Assembly: GCA_964016885.1 (NCBI GenBank)
Contig: OZ024757.1
Coordinates: 40,052,001-40,116,000 of the forward strand
Direction: 5' to 3'
Length of the DNA: 64,000 bases
Source of the DNA: Eledone cirrhosa
Taxonomy: Eukaryota
Made by a program: the position numbers and the translations under genes. Below the pieces are notes generated by a model, which was not told the DNA's origin, did no database searches, and worked only from the letters and a program-made list of their open reading frames with translations. This document shows, in pieces, positions 1,417-55,684 of the stretch; within the stretch, counting starts at the first letter, position 1; the number at the start of each line of letters is the position of its first letter.

Positions 1417-1722
1417 TTAAAAAAAATTATTTGACAAATTAAGCTGTTGGTCTTTTTCTAGGTTCAGTTCATTCCATTCGTTGAATGCATTATTGGTGAT
1501 GGAGTTCTGTTCATGTGTAGCTATTTCAGGAGAAAAGATTTGTTCTTGTTTTTGCCGGTCTGTAATTAGTGAATCAAGTTTTTCCCTATAGCTGCGTGTT
1601 TGTTGTTCCATTTCTTGTACGGCATTCGTAAGGGAATCATATTTATCTATTATTATGGTGAGTTTTTCTGATATTTCCTGTAGTAGTGTATCCGATTTGA
1701 GGGATTCAGTAGAGGATTTTGA
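1417..1722 (-). other. Orphan 101-codon open frame (coiled-coil-like) filling an island between two (TA)n tracts
   Basis: The frame of the listed 1417..1611 ORF stays stop-free up to 1722 at the TA tract edge: SKSSTESLKSDTLLQEISEKLTIIIDKYDSLTNAVQEMEQQTRSYREKLDSLITDRQKQEQIF...NNFF*. AATAAA lies on the minus strand at 1381-1386. No homology recognised. Confidence 0.3.
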
Positions 1723-1755: not shown

Positions 1756-1806
1756 AAATAAAATAAAATAAATAAGTCAAATATTTACAATTTGGCTTCG
1801 TTTATT

Positions 1807-1861
1807 ACTGCTATATATATTTCGTTGACAGCCATCTTTGGCTGTGACCTCTTCAGGCAGT
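1807..1861 (-). ncRNA. Minimal type I hammerhead ribozyme, intact core
   Basis: Minus strand reads actgc-CTGAAGA-ggtcacagcca aaga tggctgtcaac-GAAA-tatata-TA-gcagt: 5-bp stem I, stem II, palindromic stem III, AUA cleavage triplet. Confidence 0.85.
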
Positions 1862-2089
1862 CCGAATTAGTGTGGTATAGACGAGTACACATGTTGTTGA
1901 GGTGTTTAACTCTGTCAATACTGCGATATGTCCAGTTCCTGGTTAGGTTGTTATTATCCGAGGAAGGAACTGGTATCATATCCAGTTGCTCAGAGGAATA
2001 ACAACCTAACCAGGAAATGGACATATCGCATATTGACAGAGTTAAGCACCTCAACAACAGGTGTACTCGTCTATACCACACTAATTCGG

Positions 2090-2146
2090 ACTGCCTGAAG
2101 AGGTCACAGCCAAAGGTGGCTGTCACCTAAATATATATATAGCAGT
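2090..2146 (+). ncRNA. Hammerhead copy with GAAA>TAAA core mutation (likely inactive)
   Basis: actgc-CTGAAGA-ggtcacagcca aagg tggctgtcacc-TAAA-tatatata-TA-gcagt; mirror copy of 1807-1861. Confidence 0.65.
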
Positions 2147-3199
2147 AATAAACGAAGCCAAATTGTAAATATTTGACTTATTTATTTTATTTTACATTAC
2201 TCCGGAGTAACGAAACAAACCTGCGCACTTCGTCGAGTGCTCCAAGCTGCATACTCGGGTGTCGGTAAACAACCAATATATACTAAATATATATATATAT
2301 ATATATATGGATTGAAGGAGACGAGGCTGATGACCAGTGTTAGAAAGTAAGGCGACACAAAGAACAGTTAGAGAGTTTCCCTTCTTCAGTTGTCTACTAC
2401 GGGTCACGGACTTTTCAGCGCATTATAAACAATATATATATAGACACACACATACACCCATATATATATATACATATTTATATATATATATATATATATA
2501 TACATAGACACGCACGCGAATATATGTACTCACACATGTATTTATCAATATATACATACATATGTGTGTGTGGTGTGTGAATGTATCAACAAAGACGGTA
2601 CAGAACTTTACAAATCTCGGTTTCTGTGTATATAAAAAAAGTCAATACAACAATAACTAAAGATGAAACAAACAAAAAGTAATAACAACAATAACAAAGT
2701 GTTCTTTAACATTTCATCGCTTCCATTGTTAAACAAACTTGCACAATTATTTACCAAATAAATTTTAACGAAGGCTCTCGAATACATGAATTATATTTCT
2801 AATTTATAAATATACAATTTCTAAATTTATTAAAAATTACATTTATGGCAGAATCCTATACAGCTAATAACTAAATTGTATTTATAATAGCAATACTAGG
2901 TTCTTCAACTTTGGTTTCTATCAATACTCGTTTCTTCTAACGGAAACAACAAGAATTATATAACTGAAGCTATTGTCTTACCTTGGTAAGATGTTAGCGA
3001 AGAATATTCGATATTTTAAATAACGTCTACAATTTATAAATACCGAATATCATTGAATATATATTGACTACTTCAATCACAAACATTCTATTATATTTAA
3101 ATTTTATTTATTGCCATAATTGATGACAATGTATTAAGGGAACTCAAACAAAATACTCAACAATACTTAACAGCAACAACAAGAACGATAATAATTGTT

Positions 3200-5359: not shown

Positions 5360-5360
<1 letters not shown>

Positions 5361-5442
5361 CAAAGGAATTGTGGTAAGGAACCAGATGGACCATAACGCA
5401 CCAGAGTACTCAATACTTAGGGTAGTAGAGGTCATAATTTTT

Positions 5443-5443
<1 letters not shown>
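5360..5443 (+). mobile_element. Internally deleted copy of the TA-flanked element at 57165-57360
   Basis: Shares gtggtaagga(a/t)ccagatggaccataacgcaccagagtactcaatacttagggtagtagag and ends ...tttttcc(TA)n, but lacks the hairpin. Confidence 0.75.
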
Positions 5444-5497
<54 letters not shown>

Positions 5498-5519: not shown

Positions 5520-5660
5520 GCATCAGAGTTACGGGGAGCTTTTGATTCCAGTATCGGGCCATATCGATTCAGATCGAACCTTGAGCTGATTAATTGTGAA
5601 ACGCGCGTCACCAATTAATAAACGTAATGAAGGCTTAACGATTCTTCCTTGTACTATTAT
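5520..5660 (+). mobile_element. Dispersed repeat (family C) with decayed long-stem-II hammerhead
   Basis: gcttttgattcc...cagatcgaaccttgagctgat...GAAA-cgcgcg-TC-acc...AATAAA; homologous to 27945-28085 and 55590-55682. Confidence 0.7.
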
Positions 5661-5770
5661 TACATACGTACGTACGTACGTAGATACTGATGTGTAAACT
5701 CCAATGTCTTGTGTCTATGTTAGAAACCGACTCTCTCTATTCGCAAAATGTTGTGAAATTATAAAACCTG

Positions 5771-5814
<44 letters not shown>

Positions 5815-6257
5815 GTTTACTCCTATCAGCTCTTTGGAAAGTATAGTGGACTGAGGTTCCGCATTTGGAACCGTCTCTTTTCCTTATAATAGTGAGAGAG
5901 AGGGAGGGGAGAGAGGGGGAGGAGGGAAGAGAGAGGGAGGAGGGAAGAGGAGGGGAGAGAGAAAGGAGCGGAGAGATAAAGAATGGGAGAGAAGGGGAGA
6001 GAGAGGGAGGGAGGAGGGGAGAGAGGAGCGACAATATCGTTTGAGAAACATCTTTCTGTACATATATCATGGTTTATACTTTAAGATGGAAAAGCCATTA
6101 TGAAAAATAATGGCTTTTCCACCATAAAGTTTGTACTTCTTCCTCTATTTGCTTTATATATATGTACAAAATACTGTCTTTCTCAACCGATATATGGTTC
6201 TTTCCCCCTCCGTCACTCTGTGTGTATTAGACAGAGAGCCTTAGAGAACCAGACACC

Positions 6258-6288
<31 letters not shown>

Positions 6289-6398
6289 GTGTGTATATAT
6301 TAATTTGAATTATTGATGCTCTGGGCCAACGTCCACTGAGCTTTTCTGTTGAGAAACAATCATCATACATAATATATATGTTATGATACGTTAACATC

Positions 6399-6431
<33 letters not shown>

Positions 6432-6544
6432 ATGTTGAGGGTGAGTTTTATTGTAGCACAATAAAGCAAGGCAAATATCGGATAAGTAGCACTCAACAGT
6501 TTATAAATAATATAAAATCAAAAGATGATTAAAAGAGTTTCATG

Positions 6545-6615
6545 TATTTTATTATGCGCATTTCAAAAACAAATATCATCATGGGATGATATTTGCGTTC
6601 TCATCAGATAAAACA
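6545..6615 (-). ncRNA. Minimal type I hammerhead ribozyme
   Basis: Minus strand: tgttttat-CTGATGA-gaacgcaaatatcat ccc atgatgatatttgttttt-GAAA-tgcgca-TA-ataaaata. Confidence 0.88.
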
Positions 6616-6704
6616 GGGAGACATGATATGAAGCTTAAAAAACATATGTTGATTTAATACTTCACTACTTGCAAGTGTTTTGTAAGCTTCATATCATGTC
6701 TCCC

Positions 6705-6775
6705 TGTTTTATCTGATGAGAACGCAAATATCATCCCATGGTGATATTTGTTTTTGAAATGCGCATAATAAAATA
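6705..6775 (+). ncRNA. Minimal type I hammerhead ribozyme
   Basis: tgttttat-CTGATGA(6713-6719)-long stem II-GAAA(6756-6759)-tgcgca-TA-ataaaata; 8-bp stem I, predicted cleavage after 6767. Confidence 0.9.
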
Positions 6776-6946
6776 CATGGAACTCTTTTAACCATCTTTT
6801 GATTTTATATATTATATATATTATATATATTATATATATATATATATAAAATTCTGCCCTTTCCTTTCGGTGTACTACATAGTTTCCTTGTACACAATTT
6901 GTTTATCTTATATATGTGTATGTATGTGTGTCGGTGTGAGAGAGGA

Positions 6947-17736: not shown

Positions 17737-19044
17737 GAATGAGAAATATATTGTATTGCTGTAAACACAGCATATCACCCGGTCCAGCAATAGAATTTGT
17801 AACCACACGATTGCGAAGCAAAATCTCTAACCACTAAGACATGCACCTTTAGGTTTGAGTTAGTTGTTTATTTTTTTCATCTCCAGTTTCTTATTGACAG
17901 ACCAAATAACAATGGAAGTTACTAACCACCGAAACTGGCTGTAATATCCCCATAGGTTAACATGAATATATGTATTCGAGAACAAACAGCTTTGTTTTTC
18001 AAGCTAACCTACACATCCTGTTTTGACATATTCCATTGAAAATTCTATTTTAAGAAGAATATACACGATATTATTACCACCACCACCACCACTACTACTA
18101 TTACTACTATTACTACTATTACCATCATTATTATTGTTATTATTATTACTATTATTTTTTATTCTATTATTCATTTGACTTGTTATATTTTATCTACTAT
18201 TCTGTTTTCCAGATTTTTGAAATAGAAATTGTAGATTGAATGACATGCCTTTTGTTAGCCACGTGATTATCATTGGTACTATTGTAGTAGTAGTAGTTAT
18301 GATAGTAGTAGTGTTGGTAGTAGTAGTAATAGTAGTAGTAGTTAATAGTTTCCCACGATTTTTGTTGTTGCATTCACGGAGCATGATATTTAAGCTAATA
18401 TATGTTTTAATATGCAGCATGTGTAGAAAGAGGCCTTTAGCAATATCTTCTCCACACGCAACAGGAGTCAAGATATAAAATTTCCTATTCCTGTCATTAG
18501 TGGCTTCAGCACAAAGAAATGGAACGAACAATAAAGAATACTTGTGAAATAACAGTTATCGTATTGCTGATGAGAAGAAAATCTCTGAATCTGCTGCCAA
18601 ATTTTGATGTTTGGCAGTAATTCCAGTTATTCCAAAAATCTGGTTTCCGTCATCTGTGGCCAGATCAGGCAGTAAATTGGTTTAGACTCGATATATCTTA
18701 CAGATGTAATAAAGAATTCCTTCCTCCGTTCACAACCATACATCAGTGTAAAAATATTCACTAGGGAAATGTTGCTTCCTTCCCAACACCGCTCAACTAT
18801 ATCTGGTTAGTGACCCATCAAAATAACTATCATATCTAACAAACTGTACTACAGAAGACAGAAGAAGCCTGCTTGTAAATAAGTCAATACGTGGTTAGCT
18901 TGCTAGAAACAAGAGCGAAACAACACTCAAAAATCAAACCTAGGTGTATCAGAAGATAAAGTGAAAGGATGATCAGTGTAGTTCAGAAACAGACACAATG
19001 TAAAGAAGGGATGTTTTCCTCTCGGTGAGTTATAAGCCTCATTA

Positions 19045-19222
19045 TTAGGGCAGAATCGGTAGAGGGTGGGACGCCATGCTTTGCAGCATAGAGTTACGCC
19101 CCCTTACGGACTGAGTTCAAATCCCGCCGAGATTAACTTTGCCTTTCATCCTTACGGGGTCGATAAAATAAAGTACCAGTAATGCACTGGGGTAATTGCT
19201 GGCCTTGTAGAAACAATTATTA
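19045..19222 (+). mobile_element. SINE family 1 copy, well conserved
   Basis: gagttcaaatcccgccgagattaactttgcctttcatccttacggggtcgataaaataaagtaccagtaatgcactgggg. Confidence 0.85.
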
Positions 19223-20279: not shown

Positions 20280-21077
20280 TCCCCACTGTAATCAGCAACT
20301 ACAGCGATTAGATTGACACCAGTGCATTACTGGTACTTTATTGTATCGACCCCAAAACCATGAAAGGCAAAGCTAAGCTCGGCTGGATTTAAACTCAGAA
20401 CGTAAGTTTGTAGTTAAATAACAGAAATATCGTCCCCCACGAGCATCAACAACTGTTCTACCCCAGTGTATTACTGGTACTTAATGTTAACGACCCCAAA
20501 ACGATGAAAGGCAAAGCTAAGCTCGAAAGGTTTCGAACTCAGAATGTTTGGAGATGTAACTAAGCCATGAAGCTTAACTAACTCATCTCCCACTACCATC
20601 AAAATCTTCATGAATTAGTTCTACCTCAGTGCATTACTGGTACTTTATTTTACAGGCCCGGTAAACATGAGAGGCAAATCAAACCTCGGCTGGATTATGG
20701 GTAAATAATGATTTCTAGTATAGGCATACGGCCAGTAATTTGGGTGGGAGGGGAAAGTCGATTAAATCGACTCCAGTACGTTACTGGTGCTTTATTTTAT
20801 CGACCCCGTAAGGATGAAAGGCAAAGTTAACCTCGGCGGGATTTGAACTCAGACCGTAAAGGACCGTAACTCCATGCTGAAAAGCATGGTGTCCGACTCT
20901 CTACCGATACTGACATCTCCCACTACCATCAAAATCTTCAATTAGTTCTATAGCAGTACATTACTGGTACTTTATTTTATCGACCTCATAAGGATGAAAA
21001 GCAAAGTTAATCCCGGCTGGATTGTGGTTTAATAATAACAATAACTTCCTCCTCTACTACCATCAAAATCTTCATCA
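20280..21077 (-). mobile_element. Head-to-tail array of five full or partial SINE family 1 copies
   Basis: The core ttactggt(a/g)ctt recurs at ~20327, 20471, 20634, 20781 and 20961; the linker ctcccactaccatcaaaatcttca recurs three times. Confidence 0.85.
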
Positions 21078-27944: not shown

Positions 27945-28085
27945 AGCAAAAGTCCGACGAGCTTTTGATTCCAAAGTCAGGCGAGATCGATACAGATCGA
28001 ACCGTGAGCTGAGCAATAGCGAAGCGTGCGTCACTAACCAATGAGCGTAATGAAAGCTTAACAAATCGTCATTGTATTATTATTA
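27945..28085 (+). mobile_element. Family C repeat with decayed long-stem-II hammerhead
   Basis: agt-CCGACGA-gcttttgatt...gagcaatagc-GAAG-cgtgcg-TC-act: two core substitutions, stems still recognisable; follows a (TA)n tract. Confidence 0.65.
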
Positions 28086-31703: not shown

Positions 31704-32306
31704 AATAGGCATATTTTAAAAACAATATTAAAATTGTTTCATTTTATACACGAATACATTATATATATCAACATATAATCAACTCACTCTCCACCCAACC
31801 ACCACACTGTGTGTGTGTGTGTGTGTGTGTATACCTATATAAATATATATATATATACATATGTGTGTGTACGTGAGTGTGTGTGTGAGTGTGTGTGTGA
31901 GTGTGTGAGTGTGTGTGTGTGTGTGGTGAGAGGAGATATGTTTCTAAATCTAATCTTTTATTGTCATTAATGTGCTTTATCATACTTAAATCTCTAATTT
32001 ATCCACATTCATTTCGCCTATTTAAATCTCTCTCTATCTCTCTGTATGTATGTGTGTATGTATGGATGTGTGTGTGTGTATGTATGTATGCATGCATGTG
32101 TGTAACATGTGTACAGGAATATATATATGCATGCATACACACGCAATAAACACACAACCAGTGAATTTACGAAGAAACTGGGCAAAGCTTTCGAAAATGT
32201 GAAATTTAACAGCCGTTCAACACATATTTCCAACTCTCTAATCCTGAAAGGGCAGTAACTAATGGACAAAGGAGAAGACGCTAGACTTATACATATATAT
32301 ATATAT

Positions 32307-32363
32307 GGGAAAAGGTTCAGGACCCCGTCCGCAGAGCTCGAGCCGCTTCGACGGCTATTTCTG
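32307..32363 (-). mobile_element. Family B terminus abutting (TA)n
   Basis: gggaaaaggttcaggaccccgtccgcagagctcgagccgcttcgacggctatttctg is similar to the left arm at 57242-57300. Confidence 0.75.
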
Positions 32364-32464
32364 TACACAGATGGAATCGTAAGTAAAAGCTTATAGCACT
32401 ATTTCATACTCTCCAGGTATGAAATAGCGCTATAAGGTTTTACTTATGATTCCATCTGCGTACA
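32362..32464. mobile_element. Fold-back (48-bp arms, 7-nt loop) containing a hammerhead 3' half
   Basis: 32362-32409 pairs with 32417-32464; the right arm has GAAA-tagcgcta-TA (palindromic stem III), and the CUGANGA half is missing. Confidence 0.8.
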
Positions 32465-33036
32465 TATTCTTCTATTGAATATGCTTTTGTTATATATACC
32501 AATCAGAGACACAATATTCAGCTTAATCCAACACTATCATCATCATCATCACCACTACTTTCAGTCCAACCCATCACTAGCGCCATTTTTAACTGTAAGC
32601 AAATATTATGACCACCACCACCAACGACACCACTGCCAATCATAGACACCATATTTTGCCCTGTCCAACAGTATCTTCATATTCAACACCACCACCTTTT
32701 CGTCTCAGCTCATCCCAACTGCATAGTCTTCACCACCATACCATTGTCAACGTCATCAGGCCTACTCCCCTCCCAACAACAATTGCTCACAGACCATATA
32801 AACAGAAACATCAACATTCCCGAATAGCCTTCTCTTTCTGCCACTACTCTGACACACAAACTCCCTACATATAAGTCATGTATGTATATATATATATACA
32901 CATATATATAATCATATATATATATATATATATATATGATTATATATATATATAATTATATATATATATATGATTATATATATATATATATATAATTATA
33001 TATATATATATATATAATTATATATATATATATATA

Positions 33037-36134: not shown

Positions 36135-36660
36135 ATTAGTATCGTTAGGGGGTCGGACGCCATGCTTTGACGCATAGTGTTACGGCCCTTGCCATTCTGA
36201 GTTCAAATCCCGCCGAGGTTAACTTTGCCTTTCATCCTTACGGCGTCGATAACAAAGTACCAGTAACACACTGGGGTAGATATAATTGATGCAGTTGTTG
36301 ATTGTAGTGGGAGATGAAGATAGTGTTATTTAACCACAAATTTACGTACTGAGTTCAAAAACCCACCGAGGCTAACTTTGCCTTTCACCGATGAAAAAAA
36401 ATCACCAGTAATACACTGGGATACTTGCTGGCCTTGTTTCAATCATTATTATTAAATAAACAAATAAATAAAGAAGCAAAGGTATAATAATGATAATGAT
36501 ATCTGATTTAAGCACAAGGCCAATATTTTAGAGGAGGGAAAATTCGATTAAATCGACCCTAGAGCATTACTTGTACTTTATTTTATCGACCCCGTAAGGA
36601 TGAAAGGCAAAGTTAACCTCGGTGAGATTTGAACTCAGAACGTAAAGGGCCGTAACTGTT
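36135..36660. mobile_element. SINE family 1 dimer (+, 36135-36450) followed by an inverted copy (-, 36500-36660)
   Basis: Core gccgaggttaactttgcctttcatccttacgg on the plus strand and its reverse complement at ~36590-36625. Confidence 0.85.
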
Positions 36661-37450: not shown

Positions 37451-38207
37451 CACCTACTTACAGTTGCTTTTCTGTACTGACTTATTAGTCACTTTACACA
37501 TACTCACATTCGATAGATATACAAAAATACATATATACATATACACACACATATATATATATATACATATATACACACATATATACACATATATATATAC
37601 ATATATACACACATATATACACACATATATATATACATATATACACACATATATACACACATATATATATACATATATACACACATATATATATACATAT
37701 ATACACACATATATACACACATATATATATACATATATACACACATATATATATACATATATACACACATATATACACACACATATATATACATTTATAC
37801 ACATATACATATACACACACACACATATATACATATACACACATATATACATATATATATATTCATATATATATATATATACACATACACGCATATACAC
37901 ACATACAGATATACATATATGTATATTCACATGTATGAATATATATCAATATACACATACACACGCATATATATATAGGTACATGTGTGTATGTATGTGT
38001 GTGTGTTTTGTGTAATTTTCTTATGTACATATATGAACTTTTGTTCAGGTTACATTCATATGACATAAACTATATCATGTTCAATCTTAATAAAAAAAAG
38101 TATAATTTCCGGTATTCTGTAATTGGTTTTCAAACAGAAACTCCAGGTTTATTGTAAAGATATTTTAGATAAAGCGACATCTTTTTGAAGGAGTATGATA
38201 TATTATA

Positions 38208-39260
38208 CCGAGTCATAGTTTGTGGTGGTTCTATATACGAGTAGTTGTCTGTAGCTATGTTACTGAATCATAGTTTGTGGTGGTTCTATATACGAGTAGT
38301 TGTCTGTAGCTATGTTACTGAATCATAGTTTGTGGTGGTTCTATATACGAGTAGTTGTCTGTAGCTATGTTACTGAATCATAGTTTGTGGTGGTTCTATA
38401 TACGAGTAGTTGTCTGTAGCTATGTTACTGAATTATAGTTTGTGGTGGTTCTATATACGAGTAGTTGTCTGTAGCTATGTTACTGAATCATAGTTTGTGG
38501 TGGTTCTATATACGAGTAGTTGTCTGTAGCTATGTTACTGAATCATAGTTTGTGGTGGTTCTATATACGAGTAGTTGTCTGTAGCTATGTTACTGAATCA
38601 TAGTTTGTGGTGGTTCTATATACGAGTAGTTGTCTGTAGCTATGTTACTGAATCATAGTTTGTGGTGGTTCTATATACGAGTAGTTGTCTGTAGCTATGT
38701 TACTGAATTATGAAGCAATTTGTGTTGGAGCTATACACGAGTAGTTCTGTGTAGCTATGTTACTGAATCATAGTTTGTGGCGGAGCTATATATCAGTAGT
38801 TCTATGTAGCCATGTTACTGAATCATAGTTTGTGGTGGTTCTATATACGAGTTGTCTGTAGCTATGATATTAAGCCGTAGTTTGGGGTGATTCTTTTTAC
38901 GAGCAGTTGTGTGTAGCTATGAAGGTGAATCATAGTTTGTGGTGGTTCTTTATACGAGTACTTGCGTTGTAGCTATTAAACTGAGCAATAGTTTGTGTTG
39001 ATTCTATACACAAGTAGTTGTGTGTATGTATGTTACCGAGTCACAGTGGTTGGTGTTTTTATATACGAGAACTTGTGAATAGTGAGTTTACCAAATTATA
39101 GATTGTGGTGGTTCTATAAACGATGATTTGTGTGTAGCAATATTACTAAAATATAGTTTGTGGTGGTCCTATATACGAATACTTAGGTATATGTATATTA
39201 CTGAGTCACAGTTTGATGGTGTATAAATGACTAAAATGGATTTATATACAAGAGTGGTAG
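38208..39260. repeat. 55-bp minisatellite, ~18-19 units
   Basis: Unit gaatcatagtttgtggtggttctatatacgagtagttgtctgtagctatgttact; the first ~9 units are near-identical and later ones progressively diverged. Confidence 0.95.
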
Positions 39261-51052: not shown

Positions 51053-51059
51053 CTGTTAT

Positions 51060-51240
51060 TGGTAGTATCGGTATAGAGTCGGACGCCATGCTTTGACGCA
51101 TAGAGTTATGGCCCTTGCCATTCTGAGTTCAAATCCCGCCGAGGTTAACTTTACCTTTCATCCTTATGGGGTCGATAAAATAAAGTACTAGTAATACACT
51201 GAGTATTTGCTGGCCTTCTGCCAAAAGTAGAAACAATGAT
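51060..51240 (+). mobile_element. SINE family 1 copy
   Basis: Near full-length match to the window consensus. Confidence 0.85.
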
Positions 51241-55257: not shown

Positions 55258-55427
55258 ATATATGTATGTGTATATGTATGTGTATATATATATGTAAAGG
55301 TTATATTTAATTTGTTGGGATTCAAGAAGCTTAAAAAAGTTTATAACCGATATAAACCACTCAACAGATAAGTGGAGTAAATACAAAATATATTAATAAA
55401 TGGAAACTATATTTATAAAACCATATT

Positions 55428-55493
55428 TATTTTATTATACATATTTCAAAGGCAACCAAGGCAAATTATGGTGCGCTTTCATCAGATAAAATA
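55428..55493 (-). ncRNA. Minimal type I hammerhead ribozyme, intact core
   Basis: Minus strand: tattttat-CTGATGA-aagcgcacca...tggttgccttt-GAAA-tatgta-TA-ataaaata; perfect 8-bp stem I, nearly the same as in the 6705 ribozyme. Confidence 0.85.
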
Positions 55494-55589
55494 CAGATGT
55501 GTTTTATAAATAAATATTGACATACCCGGAAAAAAATATATATCCAGGGAGTGTATATGGTGTTCTGGGTAAGCGCTCGATTAAAGAAG

Positions 55590-55682
55590 GAGCTACAGAT
55601 CGAACCTTGAGCTGATCAATAGCGAAACGCGCGTCACCAGTCAATAAACATAATCAATACACAACAAATCGCCCTTGTATTA
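55590..55682 (+). mobile_element. Family C repeat, 5'-truncated, hammerhead 3' half
   Basis: cagatcgaaccttgagctgatcaatagc-GAAA-cgcgcg-TC-accagtcAATAAA, ending at (TA)n. Confidence 0.75.
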
Positions 55683-55684
55683 TC

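What the first reader, a model, noticed from the sequence alone, without database searches (positions are those of the whole stretch)
6507..6814. Young fold-back with intact hammerheads in both polarities
Both arms retain the full core, an 8-bp stem I, a long stem II and a TGCGCA palindromic stem III, so transcription in either direction yields a ribozyme preceded by its own antisense copy. The hairpin should compete with ribozyme folding, which could act as a built-in off switch. The palindromic stem III is the form known to favour dimeric cleavage. This is the best experimental candidate in the window.
Basis: partly seen in the sequence, partly recalled or inferred. Interest (0 to 1): 0.75.

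Follow-up and report, generated by a model that had tools for sequence, protein, structure and literature searches.

The report
Penelope-type head-to-head hammerhead insertion scar
This hairpin is real and carries a complete hammerhead-ribozyme motif on each strand, but it is one of many head-to-head junctions of a high-copy repeat, likely left when a Penelope-like jumping gene inserted, and the hairpin is predicted to lock the ribozyme off rather than switch it, so it is an ordinary feature.

Summary
Observation confirmed: arms 6510-6644 and 6676-6810 are 97% identical, and each carries a type I hammerhead motif (predicted cuts 6767/6768 on +, 6553/6552 on -). The insert is larger than reported. 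Sequencing runs show a high-copy repeat; the left 'flank' 6432-6509 is its 3' tail, the spacer is element sequence, and both ends abut (TA)n. In 14 of 15 listed joints, other copies are also joined head-to-head, at varied points. This is the published insertion shape of Penelope-like elements (inverted 5'-truncated copy, one-sided tail, hammerheads on opposite strands). No reverse transcriptase could be linked, so membership is inferred. The hairpin out-competes the ribozyme fold by about 95 kcal/mol: a predicted lock, not a switch. The palindromic stem III favours a dimer, but the partner lies on the other strand. Published animal Penelope hammerheads cut weakly, and this one has a G·U closing pair and an AUA site. 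Cleavage, expression and polymorphism remain untested. Earlier notes of this scan report the same pattern in three windows of other genomes. Small extras: a tail of about 80-90 nt and a recurrent sense start at 6644.

The parts
6410..6431 (.). (TA)n run at the left end; likely insertion target
   Evidence: sequence; the distant relative at 55260-55490 ends in (TA)n at the same distance from its hammerhead
6432..6509 (-). 3' tail of the element, present on the left arm only (78 nt here, about 91 nt in the family)
   Evidence: high depth over 6432-6497 in 4 of 4 runs (table 2); collinear with the solo relative, alignment score 92 against shuffle mean 30, maximum 50
6501..6502 (-). 13-nt deletion in this copy relative to other family copies
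   Evidence: 1127 of 1566 reads of X21 carry 13 more letters here (5 starts, mostly one read stack); matching loose ends in X1, X4 and X5 (tables 4 and 7)
6510..6644 (-). left arm: 5'-truncated element copy, sense on the minus strand; private changes at 6528 and 6540
   Evidence: family majority letters, table 3
6545..6615 (-). type I hammerhead motif of the left arm; core 6607-6601, predicted cut between 6553 and 6552
6641..6650 (.). pivot: 10-bp palindrome across the junction; the two copies overlap by about 2 nt (6643-6644)
   Evidence: family sequence diverges from the window before 6643 in 4 of 4 runs (table 7)
6644..6675 (+). spacer: the extra 5' part of the right copy, in sense on +; includes a second 10-bp palindrome 6667-6676
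   Evidence: contigs and reads run from 6641-6644 through the spacer into the right arm (tables 2, 3, 8)
6676..6810 (+). right arm: element copy without the tail; private changes at 6682 and 6741
6705..6775 (+). type I hammerhead motif of the right arm: stem I 6705-6712/6768-6775, core 6713-6719, stem II 6720-6755, GAAA 6756-6759, palindrome 6759-6766, predicted cut 6767/6768
   Evidence: 8 of 8 listed family variants in stems keep pairing, none of the listed rows falls in the core
6811..6848 (.). imperfect (TA)n run at the right end; likely insertion target; a target-site duplication cannot be read
   Evidence: sequence; 234 reads of X21 show other copies ending in a TA run at the mirror position (table 7)

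Best explanation
The feature is a head-to-head pair of short 3'-end copies of a high-copy hammerhead-bearing repeat, likely a Penelope-like retroelement, likely written into a (TA)n site in one insertion event, and its ribozyme is predicted to be locked off in any read-through RNA. Shown: repeat family, head-to-head geometry, one-sided tail, (TA)n ends, intact motifs, same geometry at other loci. The hammerhead is cargo of the element's terminal repeat, selected in the mobile RNA, where it would cut weakly as a dimer or with the element's protein. At this locus it has no predicted job; if transcribed through, the product would be a 135-bp double-stranded RNA. Probability that it is a Penelope-type insertion by-product by either priming route: about 0.82; by this two-ended route: about 0.6.
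For: High copy: 2739 contigs of X1, 112 of X4, 257 of X5 and 5131 reads of X21 lie on 646 bases, and only 13 of the 5131 reads are 99% or more alike. Geometry recurs: 14 of 15 listed joints go from the antisense arm to the sense part at varied points (12 of 13 without two that may reflect the stem II hairpin; 3 joints not shown); none listed is tail-to-tail or tandem. Two 3' ends exist in the family: a TA run at the mirror of the right end (234 reads) and continuation into the tail. Neither arm contains the other: the left has 78 extra 3' nt, the right 33 extra 5' nt. In 6 of the 14 joints the antisense arm is tail only (ends at 6463-6504), as expected if a distally primed copy often stops near the proximal start. 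Both arms share minority letters (6706, 6720, 6686) and each has 2 private changes: one source, then decay. Family variants keep stems paired, 8 of 8 (p 0.014 if only transitions are allowed). Literature: inverted 5'-truncated copy plus one-sided tail (PMC8557442); head-to-head with palindromes at the junction (PMC3846280); dual hammerheads 100-700 bp apart on opposite strands (PMC4209133); enzyme extends both strands, two start sites define the tail, AT-rich target, hammerhead not needed for insertion (PMC11167929). Lock.
Against: No reverse transcriptase or GIY-YIG match among 218 of 218 filtered reading-frame fragments of the window, no genome is held, and motif scans found no family member with a coding neighbour, so the link to an autonomous element is not shown. 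The tail (78-91 nt) is longer than the published 30-40 bp. No target-site duplication or empty site was seen; the right unique flank had no depth in any run. The joints rest on single contigs or one read stack with 23-34 letters on the short side. No listed contig bridges this copy's own pivot. A snap-back route fits the pivot equally well.
Confidence: 0.6

Rival explanations
1. Same element, different route: one cDNA reached 6644, folded back on itself through a short overlap and copied itself into the second arm (self-priming); the endonuclease then trimmed the tail from one end during integration.
For: Palindrome 6641-6650 and 2-nt overlap at the pivot; both arms share minority letters, as expected from one RNA; 7 of 15 joints restart the sense copy at 6644 with a variable antisense arm; self-priming was proposed for Penelope junction palindromes (PMC3846280) and endonuclease resolution for the tail (PMC8557442).
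Against: The arm that would be the copy (left) holds 78 nt that its supposed template (right) lacks, so an extra trimming step is needed; the purified lizard enzyme extends both target strands and starts at two sites (PMC11167929).
Confidence: 0.22
2. The family is a non-autonomous hammerhead repeat (non-LTR retrozyme or SINE-like) rather than the terminal repeat of a coding Penelope element, mobilised in trans.
For: No coding part anywhere in the window; all copies seen are short; a recurrent 5' start at 6644 would fit a short transcript; a 2026 preprint derives animal retrozymes from Penelope terminal repeats (10.64898/2026.07.22.740005).
Against: No head-to-tail tandem here and no go-back joint within the element among 15 listed; stem II is 15 bp, not the 4 bp of canonical retrozyme hammerheads (PMC4209133); many copies continue upstream of 6643 with related sequence in 4 of 4 runs. 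The insertion mechanism would be the same.
Confidence: 0.08
3. One reading: a functional antisense-controlled ribozyme switch, with the hairpin as the off state.
For: Both cores intact; a start inside the pivot frees the motif; the two centre-started RNAs are predicted to form a double hammerhead, -44.9 against -34.0 kcal/mol apart.
Against: The energy gap of 94-96 kcal/mol leaves no switchable state; intact cores are expected at 3% divergence; 4 changes are spread 2 and 2 like neutral decay; the equally young fold-back at 1773-2180 lost GAAA in one arm; no RNA evidence for this locus; the geometry is common in the family.
Confidence: 0.04
4. A fold-back DNA transposon (MITE) with long terminal inverted repeats and a TA target.
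For: 135-bp inverted arms, TA-rich ends, no coding part.
Against: Ends are asymmetric (tail on one side); junctions differ from locus to locus instead of one amplified junction; copies continue upstream without a hairpin; a solo relative exists at 55260-55490.
Confidence: 0.03
5. An assembly or library fold-back artefact.
For: No listed contig bridges this pivot, and the unique right flank had no depth in the four runs.
Against: The arms differ at 4 sites, each arm agreeing with the family majority where the other differs; the ends are asymmetric; like junctions occur in three independent runs.
Confidence: 0.03

Closest known systems
Insertion unit of endonuclease-bearing Penelope-like elements (pseudo-LTR with adjacent inverted 5'-truncated copy and one-sided tail; Craig et al. 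2021 PMC8557442; Arkhipova et al. 2013 PMC3846280)
   Same: Head-to-head inverted copies, short overlap and palindrome at the junction, tail on one side, (TA)n target that hides any target-site duplication, hammerhead near the 3' end.
   Different: No reading frame between or beside the copies; tail about 80-90 nt instead of 30-40 bp; clade unknown. A canonical hammerhead argues against Naiad; hammerhead plus (TA)n bias would fit Neptune-like elements, untested.
Type I hammerheads of animal Penelope elements with a small palindromic helix III (Cervera and De la Pena 2014, PMC4209133)
   Same: Type I topology, full core, long helix II, palindromic positions 15.2-16.2 and loop 3, dimer-type fold; pairs on opposite strands 100-700 bp apart were already reported in Schistosoma.
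   Different: Helix I is longer (8 bp against 4-5), helix II longer (15 against 7-8), closing pair G·U (A-U in most family reads) instead of the conserved G10.1-C11.1, no extra unpaired base after A9; activity not measured.
Poseidon element of Anolis carolinensis, PAc (Frangieh et al. 2024, PMC11167929)
   Same: Model for the mechanism: both target strands cut and extended, AT-rich target, two start sites that define the tail.
   Different: In PAc the reading frame starts in stem II; here the frames from the stem II ATG codons close within 20 codons (read from the sequence). PAc's hammerhead cut only with protein and was dispensable for insertion.
Non-LTR retrozymes of animals (Cervera and De la Pena 2020, PMC7229834)
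   Same: Non-coding, AT-rich, high-copy repeat with a type I hammerhead; weak helix III as in axolotl HHR_Amex1, which cut 6% as a monomer and better as a dimer.
   Different: Retrozymes are head-to-tail tandems of 150-450 bp that give circular RNAs; this is a head-to-head pair with no tandem.

Membership tests
Type I hammerhead ribozyme | Conserved core CUGANGA, GAAA and UH | tested here: met
   6713-6719, 6756-6759, 6766-6767 and mirror; no core change among the 40 variant rows shown, 92 rows not shown
Type I hammerhead ribozyme | Stems I and II form around the core | tested here: met
   isolated motif folds so, z -2.4 and -2.1; 8 of 8 listed stem variants keep pairing
Type I hammerhead ribozyme | Stem III, as monomer or through a dimer | tested here: met
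   monomer unfavourable by 3.5 kcal/mol; 8-bp intermolecular helix in the predicted dimer
Type I hammerhead ribozyme | Score at an Rfam hammerhead model | tested here: not met
   0 matches at gathering score in the window; no hammerhead family among 17 matches up to E 5 in 6400-6900. Rfam score is a convenience, not the definition; filed as a motif, not as a proven ribozyme
Type I hammerhead ribozyme | Loop 1 - loop 2 tertiary contact | not tested
   stem I is open-ended and stem II 15 bp long; no contact was looked for by computation
Type I hammerhead ribozyme | Site-specific self-cleavage | not testable with these tools
   no raw RNA reads were offered
Penelope-like elements (endonuclease-bearing) | Reading frame with reverse transcriptase and GIY-YIG endonuclease | tested here: inconclusive
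Penelope-like elements (endonuclease-bearing) | Hammerhead in the terminal repeat near the 3' end | tested here: met
   cut site about 45 nt from the proximal end and 120-135 nt from the distal end
Penelope-like elements (endonuclease-bearing) | Adjacent inverted 5'-truncated copy, head-to-head | tested here: met
   this locus and 14 of 15 listed joints
Penelope-like elements (endonuclease-bearing) | Tail on one end only (30-40 bp in print) | tested here: met
   one-sided tail present, but 78-91 nt long
Penelope-like elements (endonuclease-bearing) | AT-rich or (TA)n target; variable target-site duplication | tested here: inconclusive
   TA runs at both ends; duplication unreadable, no empty site
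Non-LTR retrozymes | Head-to-tail tandem of 150-450 bp units | tested here: not met
   no direct repeat of the unit; no go-back joint in the element among 15 listed
Non-LTR retrozymes | Expressed as linear and circular RNA | not testable with these tools
   only contigs and DNA reads available
MITE / fold-back DNA transposon | Symmetric terminal inverted repeats and one junction amplified to many copies | tested here: not met
   asymmetric ends, varied junctions

The most novel reading that the evidence does not exclude
The recurrent sense start at 6644 marks a true RNA 5' end or promoter, so a head-to-head insert is transcribed outward from its pivot; the two arm RNAs then pair through the 8-nt palindrome and cut each other as a double hammerhead, while read-through RNA from outside is locked in the hairpin. 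Head-to-head insertion would thus supply the dimer partner and make cleavage depend on where transcription starts.
Probability: 0.04. Interest if true: 0.6.

Novelty: new member of a known kind. Interest (0 to 1): 0.15.

Why it matters
As it stands it matters little: it is a clean example of a published insertion shape. Two small points could be of use to people who study Penelope-like elements: the tail here is about twice the published length, and the sense copy restarts at one position (6644) in 7 of 15 listed junctions, with the tail-less arm reaching further 5'. A genome-wide count of such junctions would help decide between two-ended priming and self-priming, which is still open. If outward transcription from the pivot and mutual cleavage were shown, it would give a function to both the head-to-head shape and the dimer-type hammerhead.

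Tried and rejected
Whole genome: none held. Rfam: nothing at gathering score; at E up to 5 only generic hairpin (microRNA) models and weak matches, dismissed as shape matches far below their thresholds. Coding partner: 218 of 218 complexity-filtered fragments of 45 aa or more scanned in Pfam, two weak sub-threshold hits, neither RT nor GIY-YIG; low-complexity frames were left out. Motif scans: 12 metagenome stretches, all chance matches (no nucleotide similarity beyond one 34-nt AT-rich hit; those with long frames lie in coding DNA); 0 viral. Presence/absence polymorphism: attempted with runs X1, X4, X5, X21 (4 of 23 listed); no empty-site joint and no depth on 6850-6893, which proves nothing. 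RNA-editing origin of the arm differences: rejected, only 1 of 4 private changes is A to G in the element's sense, and change types in X21 are balanced (A>G 19, T>C 15, C>T 21, G>A 21). Dating: 4 changes give 0.8-7.6 million years at an assumed 5e-9 per site per year and 4-38 million at 1e-9; the rate is not known for this host. Earlier findings by place and by sequence: none. Paper searches that added nothing.

Full report
Observation. The fold-back is real. An inverted repeat spans 6502-6644 and 6676-6818 with a 31-nt spacer. In exact mirror register the arms are 6510-6644 and 6676-6810, with substitutions at 6528/6792, 6540/6780, 6579/6741 and 6638/6682: 4 in 135 bp. As RNA it folds at -212.6 kcal/mol, z -32. 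Each arm has a type I hammerhead motif. On +, stem I is 6705-6712 with 6768-6775 (8 bp, one G·U), the core is 6713-6719, stem II is 15 pairs with one mismatch, GAAA is 6756-6759, and UA 6766-6767 puts the cut at 6767/6768. The minus-strand copy is its mirror. The window has 3 exact-core motifs with stem I of 7 bp or more; 60 dinucleotide shuffles have none. Rfam does not recognise the motif.

Host. The window is AT-rich animal-type DNA, about 20% short tandem repeat, with no Pfam match above threshold among 218 filtered frame fragments. From recall only, its SINE-like repeats and microsatellites look like those of octopus genomes; no call shows this, and no genome is held.

What the reads show. 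I laid 4 of the 23 listed runs on 6300-6945 at 80% likeness. The sequence is a high-copy family in two coded organisms: 2739, 112 and 257 contigs and 5131 reads were laid, and only 13 of those reads are 99% or more alike. Three things change the anatomy. First, 6432-6501 is not flank: it is deeply covered in 4 of 4 runs, and other copies carry 13 more letters at 6501, so this copy has a deletion there. The left copy therefore runs from 6644 down to the (TA)n run at 6410-6431. A distant relative at 55260-55490 aligns from its hammerhead to its own (TA)n end over the same distance (score 92, shuffles 30 on average, 50 at most). Second, the spacer is element sequence in sense on +; before 6643 the family continues with other, mutually similar sequence in 4 of 4 runs. 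The right copy thus starts at about 6644 and the two copies overlap by about 2 nt, inside a 10-bp palindrome. Third, other copies also stop in a TA run at the position where the right arm stops (234 reads), so the family has two 3' ends about 80-90 nt apart.

The geometry recurs. Of 15 listed joints (3 more not shown), 14 go from the antisense arm to the sense part, at varied points; 2 of these may only reflect the stem II hairpin. Seven restart the sense copy at 6644, and in three of them the letters in between are known and short (1, 2 and 10), so the shared start is not only an effect of where the reference begins. In 6 of the 14 the antisense arm is tail only. Each joint rests on one contig or one read stack with 23-34 letters on the short side, so the counts are indicative. 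The window itself has five more fold-backs. The one at 1773-2180 is 96.7% identical between arms, has a hammerhead in the same outward orientation, ends 18 and 107 nt from TA runs, and has lost GAAA in one arm; the one at 57245-57357 ends 81 and 1 nt from TA runs. Random intervals show that end pattern in 2.3% of draws.

Age and selection. Where the arms differ, the family majority agrees with the right arm at 6528 and 6540 and with the left arm at 6682 and 6741 (for example 1771 of 1793 and 719 of 727 reads of X21), so each arm has two private changes. Both arms share minority letters at 6706, 6720 and 6686. This fits one source followed by neutral decay. Divergence is 3.0% (0.8-7.6%), which means young within the family but probably of the order of millions of years (assumed rates). 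Among the 40 variant rows shown (92 not shown), 8 distinct changes fall in stems I and II and all keep pairing (p 0.014 under a transitions-only null; 2e-4 under a mixed null); none falls in the core. RAD reads weight loci unevenly and copies are related, so this is support, not proof, that the structure was selected in the mobile family.

Lock, not switch. For a transcript through both arms the ribozyme fold costs 94-96 kcal/mol against the hairpin on either strand. Because the antisense arm is made first, the ribozyme bases pair with it with probability 0.99 or more at every length tested. The motif is free only for starts at or after 6615 on + or at or before 6705 on -. Stem III is one pair over a four-base loop and is unfavourable as a monomer, while the predicted best fold of two isolated motifs is the double hammerhead with an 8-bp helix (-47.3 against -36.4 kcal/mol). 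The motif also has a G·U pair closing stem II where G10.1-C11.1 is conserved (PMC4209133), and an AUA site, the slowest of four tested in a viroid hammerhead (PMC1636495, abstract).

Mechanism. Shown: family, geometry, tail, ends, motifs. Inferred: a Penelope-type enzyme cut a TA-rich site on both strands and primed from both ends, at the distal start for the left arm and the proximal start for the right; the copies met at the pivot. This follows the lizard element, whose purified protein cut and extended both strands of an AT-rich target, started at two sites that bound the tail, and did not need its hammerhead, which cut only with protein (PMC11167929). Self-priming of one cDNA with later trimming is the main rival (PMC3846280). 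I put 0.6 and 0.22 on them.

Comparison with what is known. Inverted 5'-truncated copies and a one-sided 30-40 bp tail are described as typical of these elements (PMC8557442). Head-to-head order with palindromes at the junction is the commonest form in a rotifer (PMC3846280). Pairs of hammerheads 100-700 bp apart on opposite strands, palindromic helix III and low activity in vitro are in PMC4209133. The feature works like such an insertion. Membership is inferred, because no RT/GIY-YIG frame could be linked. It is not a tandem retrozyme (PMC7229834) and not a MITE. Differences from print: a longer tail, longer stems I and II, a non-G-C closing pair, and the recurrent start at 6644. A search for octopus, Penelope and hammerhead together gave 5 papers, 4 listed, none on this family by title and abstract start; that is a weak test, as the host is a guess.

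What I saw of each paper. PMC11167929 and PMC4209133: parts 1-2 of 4 of the text. Preprint 10.64898/2026.07.22.740005: part 1 of 5. PMC8557442, PMC3846280, PMC7229834, PMC3088659: passages. PMC1636495: abstract. No supplements were read; the hammerhead alignments in the supplements of PMC4209133 and the element lists of PMC8557442 may already include this family.

Earlier notes of this scan. Three follow-ups on other genomes reached the same reading for like fold-backs. I saw them after recording my own reading; they are unchecked notes and add no evidence.

Verdict. Observation confirmed, interpretation partly supported, new member of a known kind, interest 0.15. Cleavage, expression and polymorphism are untested.

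Noticed in passing
window 1773-2180: Second head-to-head fold-back of another hammerhead family, arms 96.7% identical; minus-strand motif has a core variant (CUGAAGA) and GAAA, plus-strand motif has lost GAAA; TA runs 18 and 107 nt from the arm ends, suggesting a one-sided tail on the right.
   Followed up: partly
window 55260-55500, minus strand: Solo hammerhead with full core, 8-bp stem I and a near-palindromic stem III region; distant relative of the focal family, collinear to its (TA)n end. Being free of an antisense arm, it is arguably the easier cleavage candidate.
   Followed up: partly
window 57151-57375 and 32300-32470; related piece 5360-5445: Fold-backs of a third repeat family between TA runs; the pivot at 57300 lies in what may be a hammerhead stem II hairpin; 81-nt one-sided extension on the left.
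   Followed up: partly
window 60844-60988: Fold-back, arms 87.5% identical, with a degenerate minimal hammerhead-like motif at 60932 on +, TA run at the left end.
   Followed up: no
window 6078-6130: Short fold-back (24-bp arms) 300 nt left of the focal insert, no hammerhead found.
   Followed up: no
window 5536-5662, 27959-28085, 55570-55683: Dispersed repeat with a hammerhead-core-like motif and palindromic GC-rich loop but altered core letters; one copy abuts the solo hammerhead element head-to-head.
   Followed up: no
window 6644 (table 5): Sense copies restart at this position in 7 of 15 listed junctions; possible defined RNA 5' end or template stop.
   Followed up: partly
window 1420-1722, minus strand: 101-aa open frame of coiled-coil character between TA runs beside the 1773 fold-back; only a weak sub-threshold Pfam hit (Sec10_N, E 0.0026); possibly a retroelement fragment.
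   Followed up: no
window 19042-19222 and about 15 other places (e.g. 20721-20912, 36137-36289, 51056-51237, 57630-57787): Abundant SINE-like repeat of 150-200 bp.
   Followed up: no
window 38198-39222: Tandem array with a unit of about 55 bp.
   Followed up: no
window 6300-6390: The sequence left of the (TA)n target is itself a lower-copy repeat (covered in X1, X5, X21).
   Followed up: no
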